Below are positions 1 to 22,135 of a stretch of 37,945 nt of DNA, one piece after another; position 1 is the stretch's first letter; each line of letters starts with the position of its first letter. The DNA lies in the IMG/VR virus record IMGVR_UViG_2526164597_000009, one strand, 5' to 3'. This stretch comes from a virus. Its lineage: Duplodnaviria > Heunggongvirae > Uroviricota > Caudoviricetes. The translations under genes were made by a program, and so were the position numbers. The notes under the pieces are model-generated. The model saw nothing but the letters and a program-made list of their open reading frames with translations, was not told the origin of the DNA and did no database searches.

Positions 1-1053
1 TTACGGGGTAATGCCAACCGCTGCCGCCACTTTGTCGCCACTTGGCAGCGTTGCCAGAGGATTGAAACGGAGCGCCGTTTCCAGATGATCCGGTGCCAGA
101 TGTGCGTAACGCATCGTCATTTTTATATCGTGATGTCCGAGAATTTTTTGTAAGGCCAGGATGTTTCCACCCGACATCATGAAGTGCGCCGCAAACGTAT
201 GGCGCAGAACGTGTGTGAGTTGACCGCGAGGGAGCACGATAGACGTTTTTTCCATCACGGATAAAAATTGAAAATAGCAGTCTGTGAAGAAATTGAACCC
301 ATCAAGCGCCATGATCTCTTCGTAAAGCTCTTTACTGATAGGGATGCTTCTGTTTTTCTTCCCCTTCGTTCTTACAAATGTAATTCGGTATTTGGTCACC
401 TGTGAACGAGTAAGATTTACGGCTTCTCGCCAGCGTGCGCCTGTGCTTAAGCATATCTTAACTACCAGTGCCAGAATTGGGTCCTGACGTTTGCAATCAG
501 CCAGTAATTCAACAATCTGCTCATGGGTAAGCCATGCCATCTCTTTTTCAGCGATGGTGAATTTTCGCATGTTCTCCAGTGGGTTCGGATACGACCATTC
601 GCCCAGGCGGGATAGTTCGCTAAAAACACTACTAAGATAGCTTTGCTCCAGGTTAATGGTGACCGGGCTTGCTCCTTTCTTCCATTTTTCGCTGAAGTAG
701 ATCTCTCCTGTCAGGCGTTTATCTCGATAGTGGGCAAACATTTTAGAGGTGAGATCGGTTGCAAGGGGATTGCCCAGAGCGTCAACTATCAACAGCAATT
801 TGTCATAGACATGCTGCCCAGCTGTCAGAGATTTACCATGTAGTTTGAACCATAGCTCAACCACGTCTTTCAGTGTTCGACGATCCACTGATTCACCCAG
901 CCAGGGCTTTGCTTCGGTTTCTTCCATCGTGTGACGCTCAAAAGCCAGAGCTTCACCTTTGGTGGCGAATTGTTTACGCACACGACGTCCACTACGTCCC
1001 GCGGGGTAACATTCGCATAGCCATTTTCCTGTGGTGAATTTTCGTACTGCCAT
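1..1053 (-). CDS. int: Tyrosine integrase (P2/186 Int family)
   Basis: ORF 1..1131 minus; start chosen at internal Met (MAVRKFTTGKW...) because GGAGG lies about 9 nt upstream; C-terminal HxxR...RYAHL catalytic region typical of P2-like integrases. Confidence 0.88.
   Translation of the reverse strand: MAVRKFTTGKWLCECYPAGRSGRRVRKQFATKGEALAFERHTMEETEAKPWLGESVDRRTLKDVVELWFKLHGKSLTAGQHVYDKLLLIVDALGNPLATDLTSKMFAHYRDKRLTGEIYFSEKWKKGASPVTINLEQSYLSSVFSELSRLGEWSYPNPLENMRKFTIAEKEMAWLTHEQIVELLADCKRQDPILALVVKICLSTGARWREAVNLTRSQVTKYRITFVRTKGKKNRSIPISKELYEEIMALDGFNFFTDCYFQFLSVMEKTSIVLPRGQLTHVLRHTFAAHFMMSGGNILALQKILGHHDIKMTMRYAHLAPDHLETALRFNPLATLPSGDKVAAAVGITP
19..40. repeat. Putative attL core (direct repeat cgctgccgccaCtttgtcgcca) lying inside the 3' end of int
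   Basis: 21 of 22 positions identical to 35091..35112; sits at the expected prophage boundary. Confidence 0.5.
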
Positions 1054-1078
1054 AAAAAATGCCCTCCAGTGGAGAGCA

Positions 1079-1106
1079 TTTTTACTGTATGTATAACCAG
1101 TGTCAA
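1079..1106 (-). promoter_or_regulatory. Candidate sigma70 promoter for int (-35 TTGACA, -10 TAAAAA) overlapping a near-consensus LexA-like box at 1085..1100
   Basis: Minus-strand TTGACA (plus 1101..1106), 16-bp spacer, TAAAAA; plus-strand CTGT-N8-CCAG at 1085..1100. Confidence 0.3.
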
Positions 1107-1142
1107 TGTATATGAATTGAGATTCATACATTGAGGTTAATT

Positions 1143-1748
1143 TTATCTTTCTACTTCCCAGCGTAGAGATTGCATTAACATAGCATAAATATTGAACAGG
1201 AAAGTTTTTAAAGTTAATACAAGGAACACTGCACTGCTTCCTACGAGTATATATAGTATTTGAACTCCAACAACTTTAGTGCAATGAGAAAACATTAAGG
1301 CTCTGAGTAATTTTGTAGCCAATCCATTTTCTTGCCCGAAAAGAAGGACTAAAAGATAGATAACAGACCAAAATATGAAATATATAAATACTCTCATAAA
1401 TACGCCATAAACATATTTTAAGTAACTTATCCCGTATAATGGATGCTTATACTCCATTAATGAAAGGAAAAGTTCAGGTTTATTTATGGTTGCAAATATT
1501 GTAAATCCAGTAATTAAAAAACCTAATGTTGTTGTAGTGAATCCGAATACTAAAGGTGTCCATTGTCTAATAGATGAAATTAACTCTGGTGATGAAGATA
1601 GACAAAAAGCATTAATAGATAATAATATCACTAATAATAATGTGAAATAAAAGTCAAATGAATTGACCTTTATTTTTTTAGTTAATTTGTAAACATCATG
1701 CAAAGATCGCTCTTTGGTCAGATCTTCTGGGTTGAATGTATATTTCAT
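1143..1748 (-). CDS. Hypothetical inner-membrane protein (about 4 predicted TM helices), last gene of the repressor-proximal cargo cassette
   Basis: 201-aa ORF in low-GC DNA; hydrophobic stretches such as LLLVILLSINAFCL, LVFGFTTTTLGFLITGFTIFATI, VFIYFIFWSVIYLLVLLFG, FLVLTLKTFLFNIYAML; start is 1 nt from upstream ORF stop. Confidence 0.6.
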   Translation of the reverse strand: MKYTFNPEDLTKERSLHDVYKLTKKIKVNSFDFYFTLLLVILLSINAFCLSSSPELISSIRQWTPLVFGFTTTTLGFLITGFTIFATINKPELFLSLMEYKHPLYGISYLKYVYGVFMRVFIYFIFWSVIYLLVLLFGQENGLATKLLRALMFSHCTKVVGVQILYILVGSSAVFLVLTLKTFLFNIYAMLMQSLRWEVER

Positions 1749-1749
1749 A

Positions 1750-2214
1750 CTATAGCCACCTAGAAATTATTGATGTTAACTTGGAAAAAATTTTAGTATA
1801 ATCTTCACGTTCTGGAATAATAATATTTCCTGCATCCTTTAATTCTGTGAATGCAGAATACGCCTCTTGAGCAGCTCTTTCCAAATCAGAACTAAGTTGT
1901 GGCCTTGATGCTTTTAGAGTAAAACTATCATTATTCCCTGATAGCCTTGCTCCGTGTTCATCTTTACCACTTATAATTACTTTAGAGTTGGCCATTCGGG
2001 TTGCACTTGTTGTTTTTTGAATGACGGCCTCAGAATTTAAACCATCTTCATTTTTATTTGTGTATACTAATTGAGCTTTACTACTATTAAGTTCTTCTTT
2101 TTCTTGTTCAATTTTCCTCCAGAAGCCATCAAGAGATATATTTTCACTATTTGTTGGCAATAACTCAATTGATAATCTATTAACAACAGAAAAGAGTTCA
2201 ACAAAATTGCTCAA
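1750..2214 (-). CDS. Hypothetical protein; probably the C-terminal part of a frameshifted about 348-aa gene (with 2294..2797)
   Basis: ORF begins with TTG and no good RBS; its frame is open upstream into the 3' end of the preceding ORF. Confidence 0.4.
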   Translation of the reverse strand: MSNFVELFSVVNRLSIELLPTNSENISLDGFWRKIEQEKEELNSSKAQLVYTNKNEDGLNSEAVIQKTTSATRMANSKVIISGKDEHGARLSGNNDSFTLKASRPQLSSDLERAAQEAYSAFTELKDAGNIIIPEREDYTKIFSKLTSIISRWL

Positions 2215-2293
2215 TGATCTTGGGTCTGTTAAGGGGGTAACCCGTAATTTGGGGGCTCCTAGTTTACGATAAATATCTTTTTTATACAGTCGA

Positions 2294-2797
2294 TCAATGT
2301 ATGATTTTTCTTTCTAATTCTTTTATTTTTTTTACTTCGTAATCCACAAAAGAATTATATCGCTGTGCAAGGCAATACTTGCTAGTATTTTCAAATTCTT
2401 CTAGGGTAGGGGCTCCAGAAACCTCTTTGCAAAGCATTAATCTGTGCTCATTAAGCATAAGAATAAAAATAGAGCTGGGGTGACTTTCTAGCGTCCTGTG
2501 ATCTCGAATTAATTGACCATCTTGAAATATTTGATCTCGTTTAAATATGGTCTTTTTTATAATGCGGCCACACAATGCAATTGTTGGAACTATAGGACCA
2601 ATAAAATCTGAATCTGTAGTATCTAACGTAATAATTTTTGTGTCAGTAAAGAAATATTCTGTATCTTTAAATTTTCTAACGTATTTTTGTGCGAAAAATG
2701 AAGGAAAAACAATGCAATCAAAAGCATCTAAGAGAACTTTGTCCTCTCCAAAATTTAAGGTATAGTTTGCAAATTCAATAGTTTTCGTAAAGCTCAT
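2294..2797 (-). CDS. Hypothetical protein; probably the N-terminal part of a frameshifted cargo gene
   Basis: 167-aa ORF in low-GC DNA starting 2 nt after the repressor stop; ends at an A5/T5 homopolymer (plus 2305..2309) where a 1-nt shift joins it to the next frame. Confidence 0.5.
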   Translation of the reverse strand: MSFTKTIEFANYTLNFGEDKVLLDAFDCIVFPSFFAQKYVRKFKDTEYFFTDTKIITLDTTDSDFIGPIVPTIALCGRIIKKTIFKRDQIFQDGQLIRDHRTLESHPSSIFILMLNEHRLMLCKEVSGAPTLEEFENTSKYCLAQRYNSFVDYEVKKIKELERKIIH

Positions 2798-2799
2798 TG

Positions 2800-3741
2800 T
2801 TAAACCCTTTTTCTAATTATTCCTTTAACTTTATTATTAAATTCCAAATCTTCTTTATCGCATTCAAAGCTATATTTTGTGTTTTCAACGCGGATGCGAT
2901 TGTTTGGAAGTTTAAATATGTCTCTAAAAGTAAATTCTCCGTTAATAGATACTAACCATAGACCATCGCTAAGATACTCCTCTTTGCTAATGATATATGA
3001 ATCATTTGCGGAATTAACTATATAGGGATGTTTTAAATTTTGAGGTAAAATTTCGCTCGAAACGATTAATTCTCTTTGATCAGTAAGTTTGCCGTCACGT
3101 AGATCATAGCAGTCTAATGTAAGCAACCCACTTAGCTTTGTTTGATTGGAATGCCCCTTACCAAAAGATAACCACTCGAGAGACACTCCTGTTTCTAAAC
3201 AGCATTGGATGATCCAGTCTGCCGGAAAAATGTCTCGCATGTATCGTGTAGCTAATGTGCTTTTTGAGATACCAAGGTGATCGGCTAAGGCTTGGCGCGT
3301 TTTGTAACCGTAAGCCTTAACAATTCGCTCTATTGCTGCTTTACCCCCTCGAGTGAAATCCATGTGGTTTTCATTATCGAACTTTATCGTGGGGGTGTGA
3401 ACTTCATTGCAAAATTCATCTGCAGACTGTTTTTCAGCATGCCGTTCTGGCGAAGGAGCTGGCACTCCTTCTTCAGCATCTAAACCAAATGCTAACCATT
3501 CGATTGATGCGCCAGTTTCCATTGAACATATAACAACCCAATCAGCAGGGAAGGTATCGCGTGCATATCTGTTAGCCATTGTACTTTGTGAAATACCAAG
3601 GTGGTTACAGAATGCTTGGCGTGATTTGAAACCATAGGCCATGAGTATTCTCTCAATGACTTTTTGCCCTCCTCGATTCTGCATGACCATGGCTTTCAGA
3701 TGATCTTCAACATGGCGAAATGTGATTTTATTAGTTGACAT
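2800..3741 (-). CDS. cI: Phage 186 CI-type immunity repressor with tandemly duplicated N-terminal HTH domain
   Basis: 313 aa; two about 65 percent identical modules (GGQKVIERILMAYGFKSRQAF...EWLAFG and GGKAAIERIVKAYGYKTRQAL...EWLSFG) then a C-terminal domain (GLWLVSINGEFTFRDIFKLPNNRIRVENTKYSFECD) resembling the 186 CI C-terminus as I recall it. Confidence 0.75.
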   Translation of the reverse strand: MSTNKITFRHVEDHLKAMVMQNRGGQKVIERILMAYGFKSRQAFCNHLGISQSTMANRYARDTFPADWVVICSMETGASIEWLAFGLDAEEGVPAPSPERHAEKQSADEFCNEVHTPTIKFDNENHMDFTRGGKAAIERIVKAYGYKTRQALADHLGISKSTLATRYMRDIFPADWIIQCCLETGVSLEWLSFGKGHSNQTKLSGLLTLDCYDLRDGKLTDQRELIVSSEILPQNLKHPYIVNSANDSYIISKEEYLSDGLWLVSINGEFTFRDIFKLPNNRIRVENTKYSFECDKEDLEFNNKVKGIIRKRV

Positions 3742-4600: not shown

Positions 4601-4777
4601 ATGCTTACTAAAGAACCATCATTTGCATCGCTGCTGGTAAAACAAAGTCCGGCAATGCACTACTACGGTCACGGCTGGATCATGGGGGAGGATGGTAAAC
4701 GCTGGCATCCGTGCCGTTCACAAGATGAATTGCTGGCAGAACTATCTACGAAAAAAGGGGGAACAAATGGCTATTGA
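4601..4777 (+). CDS. Small early phage protein, hypothetical
   Basis: 58-aa ORF with GAGG RBS; its stop overlaps the next gene start. Confidence 0.45.
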   Translation: MLTKEPSFASLLVKQSPAMHYYGHGWIMGEDGKRWHPCRSQDELLAELSTKKGGTNGY

Positions 4778-10538: not shown

Positions 10539-11069
10539 TTAACCTTGTATAGTTATTTGAATATTTTCTTCATTAACACCAAAGTATAGGGCTAGCCCTG
10601 CTTTTGCCTCCTGAAGTGTTAACGGCTTAACTACATTTTCTTCTTCTTCTTCGTACTCATCACCCGCTTGATCGACAATCGAATTAGTCGGGGTTAATTT
10701 TGGAAGAGCTTTAAATTCCAACTTGTCAGCCTCAATGCCAATGTCTTTGAGGTTGCGATAAGATACGGGATTCCGATTGCCATCCCATTGTCCTGGGATG
10801 TCAATTTCAGCATAAGAATTGATGTTTATGATCCAGCGTTTAGGGTTTTCTGGAGCCCTGCTTACTCCCGAGATTCGACCGATCATAAAAGCATGATGAT
10901 GTTTTGCTTCTTGTGATCCCCAGTCCTTTCTCGAATTTTGTACACAAACTAAATATTCGTGCTTAGCTGCATGGCTGGCGTCAAGTCTCCATGCTTGGCT
11001 TCCCCCTGTGTTCAAAATCTCTGTTAAACCACGAGCAGTAAGTACAGTAATACAGTTGGTAGTAGCCAT
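10539..11069 (-). CDS. Hypothetical cargo protein (orphan gene in the cos-proximal variable region)
   Basis: 176-aa ORF on the opposite strand to neighbours, in low-GC DNA; acidic DEYEEEEEN tract; no family recognised. Confidence 0.5.
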   Translation of the reverse strand: MATTNCITVLTARGLTEILNTGGSQAWRLDASHAAKHEYLVCVQNSRKDWGSQEAKHHHAFMIGRISGVSRAPENPKRWIININSYAEIDIPGQWDGNRNPVSYRNLKDIGIEADKLEFKALPKLTPTNSIVDQAGDEYEEEEENVVKPLTLQEAKAGLALYFGVNEENIQITIQG

Positions 11070-11385
11070 TGAATTGTGACCCCGTCTTTTTTAGAGAAAT
11101 ACTATTGATGAATGTAGTTTACGTATTTTTTTATGGAGTAGTCAAGTTAGTATTATGCTCATTATTGGCTGTTTGTTGAGTATTGTGAGTTAGTACTTTG
11201 TGTAGTACCTCTTGATTTATGAGAATTAAATCTAAGTTATGACAAAGGGAGGCAGGGGGAACGCGCAGCGCAAGGTGGACAGGAGGCCATAAGGACTCAC
11301 TTGAAGTAAGAAAAGATCGATAAAGCAACAATGCATGTCTATGCCGCATGAATTCGCATGATCGTTTGAGGATCGTTTTAGCTGA

Positions 11386-11414
11386 GGCCCGCCAGGAATG
11401 GCGGGCTTTTGTTT
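11386..11414 (+). terminator. Rho-independent terminator (stem GCCCGCC/GGCGGGC followed by TTTTGTTT)
   Basis: 7-bp GC stem, 6-nt loop, T-rich tail on the plus strand; about 40 bp upstream of cos. Confidence 0.6.
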
Positions 11415-11455
11415 ATGTCATGCAAGTGCATGAAAACCACTACATAAAGCGGGCT

Positions 11456-11474
11456 GGCGTGGCGGGGATACGAG
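11456..11474. other. Candidate cos site (cohesive-end sequence GGCGTGGCGGGGATACGAG)
   Basis: Resembles the P2/186 19-nt cohesive end (GGCGAGGCGGGGAAAGCAC as recalled); located upstream of Q 3' end in the A-to-Q interval. Confidence 0.45.
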
Positions 11475-11787
11475 CGCGCGCAACGTGCATGATATGGCAA
11501 TATGCATAACCTAGTTGATGAGATGTCTTGCCACTAATAATATTAAAACGATTGAAACATGTGTTCCGTCCGTACCATAATCTTTAAGTGGGTGCAGGGC
11601 TAAATTGTATGATGAAGTATCATATTGCTTCTGAATACTAATGGATAAGTACACGATTGATGTGATGTTATTGCTGACTATTTTTTGTTCTAGTCTTACC
11701 GAAGACCCAACACGGGAGAAGAAATAGAAATTAATTGCGTGCCCTTTAAGTGCACAATTTAGCAACAATTTAAAAATGAGGTGAACA

Positions 11788-12186
11788 GTGAAAGAGTTGG
11801 AACTATATAATCTGAATTTTTATTTTAGCTTGTGTACTTCAGATGAAGTGGAAAGAATAAAAAATGTATCAAACTCGGCGGATTACTTACTCAAAATTAG
11901 GGCTAATGCAACTATAGAACATATCAGAATCCATCGGGTATTACTAGCTGCAATGCGTAGAAGTGGAAATAATTGGTCATTAAGTAGTTATTTTGATGAT
12001 TCTCCTTTTGAGGATTATATTGATGATGTTTCTGAACAGTACAAAGAACATCTAGAAGGGATCTCTGGCGGATTTGTATTTTGCAATGATCCGAATGGTC
12101 GGATATTAAAAACTGATTATGGATGTGTGATTACTATTTCAGAATCACTTAAGTATTTTTTGTATTACATGAATTTAGCTTTTTAA
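11788..12186 (+). CDS. Hypothetical protein; likely N-terminal part of a frameshifted HEXXH-peptidase gene
   Basis: 132-aa ORF with GTG start and AGGTG RBS; ends just after a T6 run (12156..12161) where a -1 shift enters the downstream frame. Confidence 0.45.
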   Translation: MKELELYNLNFYFSLCTSDEVERIKNVSNSADYLLKIRANATIEHIRIHRVLLAAMRRSGNNWSLSSYFDDSPFEDYIDDVSEQYKEHLEGISGGFVFCNDPNGRILKTDYGCVITISESLKYFLYYMNLAF

Positions 12187-12251
12187 CTTTTGATGATTGT
12201 GATGTTCCTGATGATGTAAGAATTGCTGCATTAAGAATTGCAATAAGAACT

Positions 12252-12869
12252 ATGATGCAAAAGGAATCAATGGATTTTGAAATTGATCCACGTGGTATAA
12301 TTCCATCACAAATTGATATGGAAATTAGGTACCATGTAAATGATGTGATGAAGTTTATTGTTGGTCATGAATATTCACATTACGTACTTGGGCATTTGAA
12401 TGATGAATCAACTTTCGAGGCGAGTTTTTTAACCTCTATTGATACGGAAGAAGTTAAACACAAATTTTTCTCCTATGACCAAAAGGATGAACTAGCAGCA
12501 GATATTCATTCTTTACGAATGTTGTCGCTTTCTAAAGAAAAATTGGCTGGGTTAATTCAAAAGGTTTGTATCTACTTCGTGTTCATGGATATATATTCAA
12601 ATGTAAAAGATCAGGTGTCACCTTCACTTAATTTCACAAAGACTCACCCTGAACCAATGGATAGGCTTAGAAATATCATAGAAGAGTTTAAGGAGGAAGT
12701 GGAAATTGATTATAATGAAATGGATAAGTTCATCAGATCAGGTGAGGTCATAAAGGGTTTCTTGCAAGATGATGCTGGGTATAATTTTGATGAAATATAT
12801 GATTTTTATGGATCAATTTATTTAGGTCAGTGGAGGGGAAAGCCGTTAATAGATAGGGTAGACTATTGA
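12252..12869 (+). CDS. HEXXH zinc metallopeptidase-like protein (ImmA/IrrE-like motif); likely C-terminal part of a split about 360-aa gene
   Basis: GHEYSHYVLGH motif near residue 38; the frame is open 33 codons upstream of the ATG without a start codon or RBS. Confidence 0.55.
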   Translation: MMQKESMDFEIDPRGIIPSQIDMEIRYHVNDVMKFIVGHEYSHYVLGHLNDESTFEASFLTSIDTEEVKHKFFSYDQKDELAADIHSLRMLSLSKEKLAGLIQKVCIYFVFMDIYSNVKDQVSPSLNFTKTHPEPMDRLRNIIEEFKEEVEIDYNEMDKFIRSGEVIKGFLQDDAGYNFDEIYDFYGSIYLGQWRGKPLIDRVDY

Positions 12870-20948: not shown

Positions 20949-21387
20949 ACTGCAGAAGGTGGACGACTGGCTTAGTGCCTTACTGGCGAATCTGGAACCA
21001 GTCGCAAGAAGCCGCATGATGCGCCAGCTGGCGCAGGAACTGCGCCGGACACAGCAGCAGAATATCAGGATGCAGCGCAATCCAGATGGCAGCAGTTATG
21101 AACCGCGCAAGGTCACGGCGCGCAGTAAAAAAGGCCGCATCAAACGTCAGATGTTTGCAAAGCTGCGCACCACCAAATACCTGAAAACCGCCGCCAGCGC
21201 CGACTCTGCCAGCGTACAGTTTGAAAGTAAGGTGCAGCGCATTGCCCGCGTTCACCATTATGGCCTGCGCGATCGCGTCAGCCGCAAAGGACCGGAAGTG
21301 CGTTACGCAGAGCGTCGTTTGTTGGGTCTTAATGGTGAGTCTTACGTTCTAACTCTTGATATATTGAATAGATTCCTTCTGTCTTGA
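20941..21387 (+). CDS. S: Tail completion protein (P2 gpS-like); the last about 17 codons run into low-GC inserted DNA
   Basis: 148 aa; GTG start overlapping R; 3' end overlaps the convergent cargo gene. Confidence 0.75.
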   Translation: MAELQKVDDWLSALLANLEPVARSRMMRQLAQELRRTQQQNIRMQRNPDGSSYEPRKVTARSKKGRIKRQMFAKLRTTKYLKTAASADSASVQFESKVQRIARVHHYGLRDRVSRKGPEVRYAERRLLGLNGESYVLTLDILNRFLLS

Positions 21388-22135
21388 ATTCACCATATGC
21401 CCAATGAATTGCATTTTTTTGTTCAGTCAGAATATATTTCCTAACTTTTTTAGAATAGTGAATGGTCAGTATAAAACCCAAAGAAATCCATAATAGAATA
21501 AATATGGTTGTTGGGGCAAAGGAATAGATAAAGAATTTGTCTTTAACGAAATTCTTGACTTCTTCATCAATGTAAGCATTCCCTTCATCAGTGGTTAGTA
21601 GTTTACAAAGAATTTCTTTATGCTCGATAGTTAATGATTTGTACTTCTCTGTACTGGCAGAGGATGACTCTTCGCAATCATCCTTTGATATTTCCCAATC
21701 AGGAGTGGTTAATATTGTAGCTGCAGTCGCCAGTTTTTTTGACATATAAAATGATTCACCGGATTTTATCCAATAAAGCAATGTGCTATTTGGTGGGGTT
21801 CTAATGGCTTGGATGAAAACTGGACCAAAAATATAAATTGCACACAAAAAAAGAAGTGAAAAGAGAACCGTGATTGATTTTTCAGCCCATGTGATAGTAG
21901 GCAGCCTTTTTAATGATATTCGTATAAGAAAAAAATTTAATATAAACGCAGGTATTCCTGATTTTTTCAAAATTACATCATGAGATTTTCTATATTTGAA
22001 TAGTGCTCTTATAACTATCGTCACCAAAGTTATAACAGCTCCAATAATGGAAATCCATGCGGCAAGTGCCGCTGCCGGGGTGTTTAAAAATTCAGCATTA
22101 AATATATTAGAACTTATTGGATTCATAACACTCAT
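21329..22135 (-). CDS. Hypothetical membrane protein moron between S and V (P2 orf30 position)
   Basis: 268 aa in low-GC DNA on the opposite strand to the late operon; TM segments near both termini (WISIIGAVITLVTIVI, FIYSFAPTTIFILLWISLGFILTI). Confidence 0.6.
   Translation of the reverse strand: MSVMNPISSNIFNAEFLNTPAAALAAWISIIGAVITLVTIVIRALFKYRKSHDVILKKSGIPAFILNFFLIRISLKRLPTITWAEKSITVLFSLLFLCAIYIFGPVFIQAIRTPPNSTLLYWIKSGESFYMSKKLATAATILTTPDWEISKDDCEESSSASTEKYKSLTIEHKEILCKLLTTDEGNAYIDEEVKNFVKDKFFIYSFAPTTIFILLWISLGFILTIHYSKKVRKYILTEQKNAIHWAYGEFKTEGIYSIYQELERKTHH

What the first reader, a model, noticed from the sequence alone, without database searches (positions are those of the whole stretch)
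2294..2320. Homopolymer frameshift splits the first cassette gene
The 167-aa ORF ends just after an A5 run (T5 on the plus strand at 2305..2309). The downstream 154-aa ORF has no ATG or GTG start (TTG only) and no RBS, and its frame stays open upstream across the 80-bp gap. A 1-nt shift in the run gives a continuous sensible ORF (...ELERK-SYIDRLYKKDIYRKLGAPKLRVTPLTDPRSLSNFVELF...) of about 348 aa. This could be a recent inactivating mutation, a phase-variable tract, programmed +1 frameshifting, or a homopolymer sequencing error.
Basis: seen in the sequence. Interest (0 to 1): 0.6.

Follow-up and report, generated by a model that had tools for sequence, protein, structure and literature searches.

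The report
Broken RexA-like prophage exclusion gene
A prophage gene resembling the lambda RexA phage-exclusion protein has been knocked out in this E. coli strain by two separate one-base deletions in runs of A, which makes it an ordinary inherited pseudogene and not a programmed frameshift or a sequencing error.

Summary
The split is real, but there are two lesions, not one. All 33 close relatives examined at DNA level (E. coli prophages, Klebsiella phages, viral and metagenome contigs) carry one uninterrupted 1050-nt gene (349 aa) with runs A9 and A6. The window has A8 (plus strand 2326..2333) and A5 (2305..2309).

The same A8/A5 allele occurs in an independent assembly of a different strain (Logan ERR152026), which also has two further 1-nt deletions downstream. 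This points to an inherited, decaying pseudogene and argues against a sequencing error. Programmed frameshifting is not supported: every homologue is in frame, the overlap between the two frames is only 17 nt with no recognisable shift site, and slippage in the A8 run leads straight to a TAA stop.

The parts
1750..2797 (-). RexA-like (DUF4747-type) gene, here a pseudogene. The ancestral form is 1050 nt / 349 aa.
   Evidence: Relatives carry one ORF at this position, WP_040038354.1, annotated 'DUF4747 family protein' or 'hypothetical protein'. For the AF2 model, lambda RexA is the best PDB match.
2294..2797 (-). 5' remnant ORF of 167 aa: 157 native residues followed by 10 out-of-frame residues (IKELERKIIH) and a TGA stop.
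   Evidence: The exact protein is on record in GCA_000250475.2 and in Logan ERR152026.
2326..2333 (-). First lesion: an A8 run (T8 on the plus strand) where all relatives have A9.
   Evidence: It is A9 in every one of the 14 other loci read directly. All 24 BLAST hits are 2 nt longer than the query.
2305..2309 (-). Second lesion: an A5 run (T5 on the plus strand) where all relatives have A6.
2297..2313 (-). The only stretch where both the upstream and the downstream reading frame are open, so any rescuing shift would have to occur here.
   Evidence: Three-frame translation. The downstream frame has stops (*KK*KN*) right up to 2314. The upstream frame stops at 2296..2294.
1750..2214 (-). 3' remnant: 154 codons counted from a TTG with no Shine-Dalgarno sequence. 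The native frame is open from 2313, and native sequence resumes at ...SYIDRL.
   Evidence: There is no ATG or GTG in that frame before the internal Met of ...TRMANSK.
1143..1748 (-). Intact 201-aa multi-pass membrane protein, the RexB-like partner. Its ATG lies 1 nt after the stop of the broken gene and is preceded by AGGTGG.
   Evidence: Hydropathy predicts 4-5 transmembrane segments. An equivalent partner follows the gene in 11 of 11 complete homologous loci.
2800..3741 (-). CI repressor (313 aa, two Phage_CI_repr HTH domains plus Phage_CI_C). Its stop lies 2 nt before the start of the RexA-like gene.
   Evidence: Pfam hits; annotation of the relatives.
1..1131 (-). P2/186-type tyrosine integrase. 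The longest ORF is 376 aa; relatives annotate 350 aa, which corresponds to 1..1053.

Best explanation
The window is an E. coli P2/186-like prophage integrated between rcdA and ybjL. Between its cI repressor and int genes it carries a low-GC, two-gene cargo cassette: a 349-aa cytoplasmic protein with a lambda-RexA-like fold, followed by a 201-aa multi-pass membrane protein. The gene order cI, rexA-like, rexB-like is the same as in the lambda immunity region.

In this strain the RexA-like gene has suffered two independent 1-nt deletions, 16 nt apart, in A runs within a lysine-rich interdomain stretch (A9 to A8 and A6 to A5). Translation now ends after 157 native and 10 aberrant residues. The product lacks the region that would correspond to the RexA dimerisation domain and the C-terminal helices that complete the split globular domain. 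The 3' part has no usable start codon.

The gene is therefore a real, inherited pseudogene, and any exclusion (abortive-infection) function that depends on it is most likely lost. The membrane partner remains intact.

Shown here: the two deletions, their absence from all intact relatives, their presence in a second strain, and the fold match. Inferred: loss of function, Rex-like exclusion as the original function, and co-transcription with cI.
For: Lesions:
- Alignment A1 shows A9 to A8 and A6 to A5 against four relatives.
- All 11 E. coli genomes and all 13 Klebsiella phage records give matches 2 nt longer than the query and annotate one 1050-nt CDS.
- Nine further viral or metagenome loci all have A9/A6.

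Reality of the allele:
- The exact 167-aa product is encoded in NCBI GCA_000250475.2, which is 100% identical to the window and is its apparent source, and independently in Logan ERR152026.
- That second contig differs from the window at 14 SNPs, 8 of which are alleles also seen in other relatives. It therefore comes from a different strain and is not noise.
- Its chromosomal flank shows no indels.
- It carries two additional 1-nt deletions further down the same gene, as expected of a decaying pseudogene.
- A homopolymer census found only three contractions in the whole window; the other 6-8-nt runs that could be compared all match relatives, and 15.7 kb aligned to strain 214-4 has zero gaps.

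Single ORF is the norm:
- 25 homologous clusters measure 338-359 aa, apart from one of 415 aa and one of 229 aa.
- The alignment is continuous across the site.
- 11 of 11 complete loci from other genera have one ORF followed by a membrane partner.

Identity of the gene:
- The AF2 model has pLDDT 81.7.
- In Foldseek against the PDB the only significant hit is lambda RexA 8TWQ, E = 1.2e-5.
- RexA-like DUF4747 proteins paired with 4-TM partners next to the repressor are described for phages Sbash and CarolAnn (PMC6426596, PMC6426606).
- GC content is 33% and 30% for the two cassette genes against 39-54% for the other window segments measured (cI 39%, int 47%, early and late genes 49-54%).
Against: - I could not inspect reads, and the sequencing platforms of both assemblies are unknown.
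- Two further A deletions close together in ERR152026, and a third homopolymer contraction in the window's fil gene, are also the pattern that homopolymer-prone chemistry produces.
- The RexA link rests on fold only. Local Pfam, NCBIfam and PADLOC scans and hhalign against lambda RexA and RexB found nothing.
- No experiment shows that the intact gene excludes phages or that the truncated product is inactive.
- A low level of spontaneous frameshifting on AAA-A cannot be excluded.
Confidence: 0.85

Rival explanations
1. Homopolymer sequencing or assembly error: the strain really has A9/A6 and an intact gene.
For: Both lesions are -1 changes in A runs inside an A-rich stretch, which is the classic 454 / Ion Torrent / Nanopore error signature. 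A third -1 contraction lies in fil at 4751..4756. Within the aligned 1,151 nt the window is otherwise identical to strain CAVP766 (L001).
Against: - The identical A8/A5 allele is present in an independently sequenced, genetically distinct strain, ERR152026.
- All other comparable 6-8-nt runs, including G8 and A8 runs, match relatives.
- There are no indels across 15.7 kb aligned to strain 214-4.
- The three contractions cluster within 2.5 kb and are not spread over the window.
Confidence: 0.05
2. Contingency (phase-variable) switch: the A9 run is an evolved, reversible ON/OFF tract for a costly abortive-infection gene, and the window shows an OFF state.
For: Three tract lengths exist in nature:
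- A9 is the common one; the intact protein P0028 is on 555 contigs.
- A8 occurs in the window and in ERR152026.
- A10 is inferred for K. pneumoniae protein P0029 (161 aa, 14 contigs). An in-silico A10 in the Klebsiella allele reproduces its exact C-terminus ...EVKKKYKN*.
Against: - The run is not conserved. The 77%-identical orthologue in the same prophage context has A5 at this position, and distant homologues have no run there.
- The runs follow naturally from 33% GC combined with a Lys-rich linker.
- OFF alleles are rare.
- The window allele has a second deletion, so regaining A9 alone would not restore the frame.
- ERR152026 shows further decay.
Confidence: 0.07
3. Recoding: programmed +1 ribosomal frameshifting, or transcriptional slippage, produces a full-length protein from the A8/A5 allele.
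For: The two frames overlap. The overlap contains AAA-A, on which tRNA-Lys can re-pair in the +1 frame, together with the rare codons AGA and AUA.
Against: - No homologue needs a shift.
- The overlap is only 17 nt. It has no shift-prone codon followed by a stop or hungry codon in the right position, and no upstream Shine-Dalgarno-like stimulator seen in the sequence.
- A5 is too short for efficient RNA polymerase slippage (established knowledge).
- Slippage of -1 or +2 in the A8 run gives GTA AAA AAA TAA or GTA AAA AAA AAA TAA, an immediate stop in either case (derived from the sequence).
Confidence: 0.02
4. A functional split: the two halves are made as separate polypeptides that still assemble into an active protein.
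For: The break falls in the most variable, Lys-rich segment of the family alignment, at the C-terminal end of the long predicted helix 132-164.
Against: - The 3' half has only a TTG start with no Shine-Dalgarno sequence, 79 nt after the stop.
- No homologue is split at this position.
- In lambda RexA the globular domain is built from both the N- and the C-terminal segments (PMC11077077), so a break separates parts of a single domain.
- The ERR152026 allele has additional frameshifts in the 3' half.
Confidence: 0.02

Closest known systems
Lambda RexA/RexB exclusion system (cI-rexA-rexB immunity operon)
   Same: - Gene order: repressor, then a cytoplasmic protein, then a small multi-pass membrane protein, tightly packed on the lysogenic strand.
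- The predicted fold of the 349-aa protein has lambda RexA (8TWQ) as its best PDB match and RdgC as its second.
- The cassette is prophage-borne and has low GC.
   Different: - There is no detectable sequence similarity to RexA or RexB, and no hits to Pfam RexA/RexB.
- The proteins are larger (349 and 201 aa against 279 and 144 aa).
- The host phage is P2/186-like, not lambdoid.
- int follows directly downstream.
- No exclusion phenotype has been tested.
- In this window the RexA-like gene is broken.
DUF4747 / 'CarolAnn' prophage defence system (Sbash gp30-gp31, CarolAnn gp44-gp43)
   Same: - It is a two-gene module: a protein of about 340-370 aa related to DUF4747/RexA plus a membrane protein of about 165-205 aa. 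In CarolAnn it is co-expressed with the repressor (PMC6426606, PMC6426596).
- RefSeq names the intact orthologue 'DUF4747 family protein'.
- Five homologue clusters carry a precomputed PF15931 hit.
   Different: - My own Pfam scans of 22 family members did not reach PF15931, even at E up to 1.
- The hosts are Proteobacteria, not Actinobacteria.
- I made no direct sequence comparison with the actinophage proteins.
Homopolymer frameshift pseudogenes in prophage accessory ('moron') genes
   Same: The changes are -1 indels in A runs of an AT-rich acquired gene. The allele is rare, is shared by descent, and shows further decay in a sister lineage.
   Different: Nothing unusual, apart from two lesions lying 16 nt apart and the same A9 run being hit independently in Klebsiella (A10).
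Programmed +1 frameshift genes (prfB type) and slippage-rescued poly(A) genes
   Same: Two overlapping frames next to an A run.
   Different: There is no conservation of the shift among homologues, no stimulatory context, and the run is too short. Slippage in the longer A8 run leads straight to a stop.

Membership tests
Programmed ribosomal frameshift / recoding site | The two-frame arrangement and the shift site are conserved in homologues | tested here: not met
   All 33 close relatives read at DNA level, 25 protein clusters and 11 complete distant loci encode one uninterrupted ORF.
Programmed ribosomal frameshift / recoding site | A recognisable shift motif with a stimulator (a slippery codon before a stop or hungry codon, plus an upstream SD-like element or downstream structure) | tested here: not met
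   The 17-nt overlap AAAGAAAAATCATACAT has only AAA-A followed by the common codon AUC. The 0-frame stop is preceded by CAU, which cannot re-pair in the +1 frame (read directly). RNA structure was not examined.
Programmed ribosomal frameshift / recoding site | A full-length trans-frame product is made | not testable with these tools
   This needs mass spectrometry or a reporter assay.
Phase-variable contingency locus (homopolymer slipped-strand switch) | Tract length is polymorphic among close relatives, toggling the frame | tested here: inconclusive
   A9 is seen in 33 DNA records, A8 in two strains, and A10 is inferred from one Klebsiella protein found on 14 contigs. OFF alleles are rare and may be clonal.
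Phase-variable contingency locus (homopolymer slipped-strand switch) | The tract is maintained in orthologues despite available synonymous alternatives | tested here: not met
   The 77%-identical orthologue in Silvania confinis has CTT AAA AAT (A5) at this position. Distant homologues have no run at the site.
Phase-variable contingency locus (homopolymer slipped-strand switch) | The OFF state is reversible by a single tract change | tested here: not met
   The window allele needs two changes, A8 to A9 and A5 to A6. Alternatively a single -1 or +2 change must fall inside the 17-nt overlap.
Lambda RexA family (Pfam PF15969) / DUF4747 (PF15931) | Sequence match to the family profile | tested here: not met
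   There are no Pfam, NCBIfam or PADLOC hits for the intact protein or for 22 relatives. hhalign against lambda RexA gives a probability of 1.7%. Precomputed PF15931 hits exist for five homologue clusters, and RefSeq uses the DUF4747 name, so sequence-level membership is borderline.
Lambda RexA family (Pfam PF15969) / DUF4747 (PF15931) | A RexA/RdgC-type two-domain fold | tested here: met
RexAB-like two-gene exclusion module | A small multi-pass membrane partner encoded immediately downstream | tested here: met
   The 201-aa partner has 4-5 predicted transmembrane segments. It is present in 11 of 11 complete loci across Gamma- and Betaproteobacteria. It shows no sequence similarity to RexB.
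RexAB-like two-gene exclusion module | Encoded next to, and on the same strand as, the prophage repressor | tested here: met
   The cI stop lies 2 nt before the gene's start in the window and in the close relatives. This was not examined in the non-prophage loci.
RexAB-like two-gene exclusion module | Excludes superinfecting phages | not testable with these tools
   This needs plaque assays with lysogens carrying the A9/A6 allele and the A8/A5 allele.
Sequencing artefact | Not reproduced in independent data | tested here: not met
   The same A8/A5 allele occurs in Logan ERR152026, a distinct strain with 14 SNPs relative to the window.

The most novel reading that the evidence does not exclude
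The A9 run in the RexA-like gene of these P2-like prophages acts as a natural mutational switch. It repeatedly turns a costly abortive-infection module off (A8 in E. coli, A10 in Klebsiella) and possibly on again. The window captures an allele that was switched off and then locked off by a second deletion, leaving a RexB-like membrane protein expressed on its own.
Probability: 0.08. Interest if true: 0.5.

Novelty: new member of a known kind. Interest (0 to 1): 0.2.

Why it matters
The finding corrects the annotation. The two 'hypothetical proteins' WP_050553204.1 (167 aa) and WP_158000288.1 (154 aa) are the halves of one broken gene. The ancestral sequence differs from the junction that a single-base repair would give.

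It also identifies the cargo between cI and int in this group of P2/186-like prophages of E. coli and Klebsiella as a RexAB-like two-gene module. PADLOC v2, Pfam and NCBIfam models do not detect this module.

The strain offers a natural rexA-minus, rexB-plus allele to compare with intact relatives. As a frameshift in its own right, it is an ordinary pseudogenisation.

Tried and rejected
- Pfam, NCBIfam, PADLOC and PHROGs scans of the intact protein and its partner gave nothing useful. The only hit was the unannotated phrog_10040.
- PDB sequence and profile searches found no hits.
- hhalign of the family alignments against lambda RexA and RexB found no relationship.
I repeated it with P0001 as the first row.
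The A10 state is therefore inferred from an in-silico insertion that reproduces its C-terminus.
- Literature searches for AIHN00000000 and ERR152026, made to learn the sequencing platforms, returned nothing.
- I considered rescue by slippage in the A8 run and rejected it, because any -1 or +2 change there creates a TAA stop.
- I considered window-wide homopolymer undercalling and rejected it after the census.
- The tblastn search of the phage collection found only the 13 Klebsiella records already known.

Full report
**1. Observation**

On the minus strand a 167-aa ORF (2797..2294) ends ...KELERKIIH-TGA, just after an A5 run (plus strand 2305..2309). A 154-aa ORF (2214..1750) begins with TTG and has no purine-rich sequence upstream. 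Its frame is open upstream as far as 2313.

The downstream frame carries three stops (*KK*KN*) immediately before 2313, and the upstream frame stops at 2296..2294. Any event joining the frames must therefore fall within a 17-nt stretch, 2313..2297.

**2. What the lesion really is**

Megablast of 1700..2850 found the locus in 11 of 5,426 complete E. coli genomes and in 13 Klebsiella phage records (Elveevirus, Peduoviridae). Every match is 2 nt longer than the query. In all four relatives fetched, a single 1050-nt CDS of 349 aa occupies the position between the CI repressor and a 201-aa ORF.

The alignment shows two separate 1-nt deletions in the window:
- A9 to A8 at plus 2326..2333.
- A6 to A5 at plus 2305..2309.

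The ancestral protein reads ...DYEVKKNKRIRKKKSYIDRLYKK.... In the window the first deletion shifts the frame, so the last 10 residues of the 167-aa ORF (IKELERKIIH) are out of frame. The second deletion shifts the frame again.

Nine more loci recovered by a pattern scan (7 IMG/VR contigs and 2 metagenome contigs) all have A9/A6.

**3. Real mutation or sequencing error?**

The exact 167-aa product is on record in two places.
- The first is NCBI GCA_000250475.2, contig AIHN01000039.1. It is 100% identical to the window over 8.8 kb and is its apparent source.
- The second is a Logan assembly of run ERR152026. It has the same A8 and A5 runs but differs from the window at 14 SNPs across 4.3 kb. Eight of these are alleles also seen in other relatives, so it is a different strain and the differences are genuine polymorphisms.

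The chromosomal flank of that second contig differs from the window's source by 2 SNPs and no indels. Within the same gene it has two further 1-nt deletions (A6 to A5 and AA to A, near window 2011..2018). That is what continued decay of an already dead gene looks like.

A window-wide census also argues against systematic homopolymer undercalling:
- Only three homopolymer contractions exist relative to close relatives: 2305, 2326, and 4751 in fil.
- Every other 6-8-nt run that could be compared, including a G8 and an A8, has the same length as in relatives.
- 15.7 kb aligned to strain 214-4 contains no gap.

I could not look at reads or learn the sequencing platforms. A small residual probability of artefact therefore remains.

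**4. Recoding**

The family consists of uninterrupted proteins. Among 25 clusters, all are 338-359 aa apart from one of 415 aa and one of 229 aa. They align continuously across the site. In 11 of 11 complete loci from other genera the gene is one ORF.

The 17-nt overlap has no recognisable +1 motif. The A5 run is too short for efficient transcriptional slippage. Slippage in the longer A8 run cannot help, because removing one A or adding two A's there gives an in-frame TAA at once (derived from the sequence). Programmed frameshifting is not supported.

**5. Phase variation**

The 90% cluster of the intact protein (295 member sequences) includes these forms:
- The intact form P0028, on 555 contigs.
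- A K. pneumoniae protein of 161 aa, P0029, on 14 contigs, ending ...EVKKKYKN.
- Other lesions: P0030, an N-terminal frameshift or deletion, and P0039, a stop-codon loss.

Inserting one A into the A9 run of the Klebsiella allele reproduces the P0029 C-terminus and its length exactly. The same run has therefore been hit independently in the opposite direction (A10), and the A9 run is a mutational hotspot.

Several points speak against an evolved switch:
- The run is not conserved. The 77%-identical orthologue in the same prophage context (Silvania confinis) has A5 at this position, and distant homologues have no run there.
- The runs are what 33% GC plus a Lys-rich linker would produce.
- OFF alleles are rare.
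- The window allele cannot revert by restoring either run alone to its ancestral length; only a single -1 (or +2) change inside the 17-nt overlap would re-open the frame.

I rate an evolved contingency switch as unlikely, at about 0.07-0.08.

**6. What the gene is**

The cassette runs cI (313 aa; stop 2 nt before the next start), then the 349-aa protein, then a 201-aa protein (start 1 nt after the stop, preceded by AGGTGG), then int. GC content is 33% and 30% for the two cassette genes, against 39-54% for the other window segments measured (cI 39%, int 47%, early and late genes 49-54%).

The 201-aa protein has 4-5 predicted transmembrane segments. An equivalent partner follows the gene in all 11 complete loci from Gamma- and Betaproteobacteria, so this is a conserved, mobile two-gene module.

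Sequence methods say little about the 349-aa protein:
- There are no local Pfam, NCBIfam or PADLOC hits.
- PDB sequence searches find nothing.
- hhalign against lambda RexA and RexB is negative.
- RefSeq nonetheless names the intact protein 'DUF4747 family protein', and five homologue clusters carry precomputed PF15931 hits.

The literature describes RexA as DUF4747-containing. It describes Sbash gp30/gp31 and CarolAnn gp44/gp43 as Rex-like pairs: a DUF4747 protein plus a 4-TM protein, co-expressed with the repressor in CarolAnn (PMC6426596, PMC6426606). A 2026 paper lists 'DUF4747/CarolAnn' among immune operons (PMC13373217).

I conclude that the cassette works like RexAB. Membership at the sequence level is borderline, and the function has not been tested.

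**7. Consequence of the break (inferred)**

In the model, the break falls at the end of a long helix (residues 132-164) and the following loop. This is the most variable, Lys-rich part of the family alignment.

In lambda RexA the globular domain is assembled from the N-terminal segment and the C-terminal helix, with the dimerisation domain inserted between them (PMC11077077). A product of 157 native residues would therefore lack the dimerisation region and part of the globular domain.

The membrane partner keeps its own start and Shine-Dalgarno-like sequence. However, it now lies 540 nt downstream of a premature stop, so polarity on it and on int is possible. This was not tested.

**8. Verdict**

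The most likely explanation (0.85) is an inherited double-frameshift pseudogene of a RexA-like exclusion gene in a P2/186-like prophage. Sequencing error, recoding, a functional split and an evolved phase switch are each unlikely.

The frameshift itself is ordinary. The modest points of interest are the identification of a RexAB-like module that current defence-system models miss, and a recurrently hit A9 run.

Noticed in passing
window 4751..4756 (and 4659..4666): The fil gene (Phage_186_Fil) also carries a -1 homopolymer contraction (A7 to A6). This gives a 58-aa product with an altered C-terminus in place of the 66 aa of relatives. There is also an in-frame 3-nt ACT insertion about 90 nt upstream. 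In a spread sample from more than 1,100 E. coli genomes covering at least 80% of the query, the full-length matches span 299 nt where the window has 301. There is no independent confirmation, because the ERR152026 contig ends before this site.
   Followed up: partly
window 2800..3741 (-): The CI repressor is 313 aa and has two tandem Phage_CI_repr HTH domains (about residues 15-85 and 135-197) ahead of one Phage_CI_C domain. This looks like a duplicated DNA-binding domain. The same protein (WP_000106180.1) is present in the relatives.
   Followed up: no
L008 (Logan ERR152026) 2560..2600, equivalent to window about 2011..2018: The sister allele has two more single-A deletions 3 nt apart (TCAAAAAACAACAAG becomes TCAAAAACACAAG). 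All four lesions in this gene lineage are losses of A in A-rich stretches, occurring as two tight pairs. That could hint at a mismatch-repair-deficient episode or at a clustered-mutation process.
   Followed up: partly
window 10539..12869: A second cargo region lies between the DinI-like gene and the portal gene. It holds a 176-aa ORF (-), then a 132-aa and a 205-aa ORF (+) in different frames, 65 nt apart. The 205-aa ORF has an HExxH motif and a weak Peptidase_M48 hit. The 11.5-13.0 kb part has no close match in 5,426 complete E. coli genomes. The 132-aa and 205-aa ORFs might be another split gene.
   Followed up: partly
window 21329..22135 (-): A 268-aa AT-rich membrane protein (DUF6216) sits between the virion morphogenesis gene and the baseplate V gene. 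Relatives carry a different 816-nt hypothetical gene at this position. This is the third variable cargo site of the prophage, and several A7/T7 runs lie here.
   Followed up: no
Cluster of the intact protein (P0029, P0030, P0039): Klebsiella pneumoniae carries other damaged alleles of the same gene. One is an A10 frameshift (161 aa, 14 contigs). Another is an N-terminal frameshift or deletion (308 aa, 3 contigs). The third is a stop-codon loss that reads into the partner gene (367 aa). The gene appears to be lost repeatedly.
   Followed up: partly
window 1..1131 (-): The longest integrase ORF is 376 aa, starting from an upstream ATG. RefSeq relatives and the collection's gene calls use a 350-aa start, which corresponds to 1..1053.
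   Followed up: no
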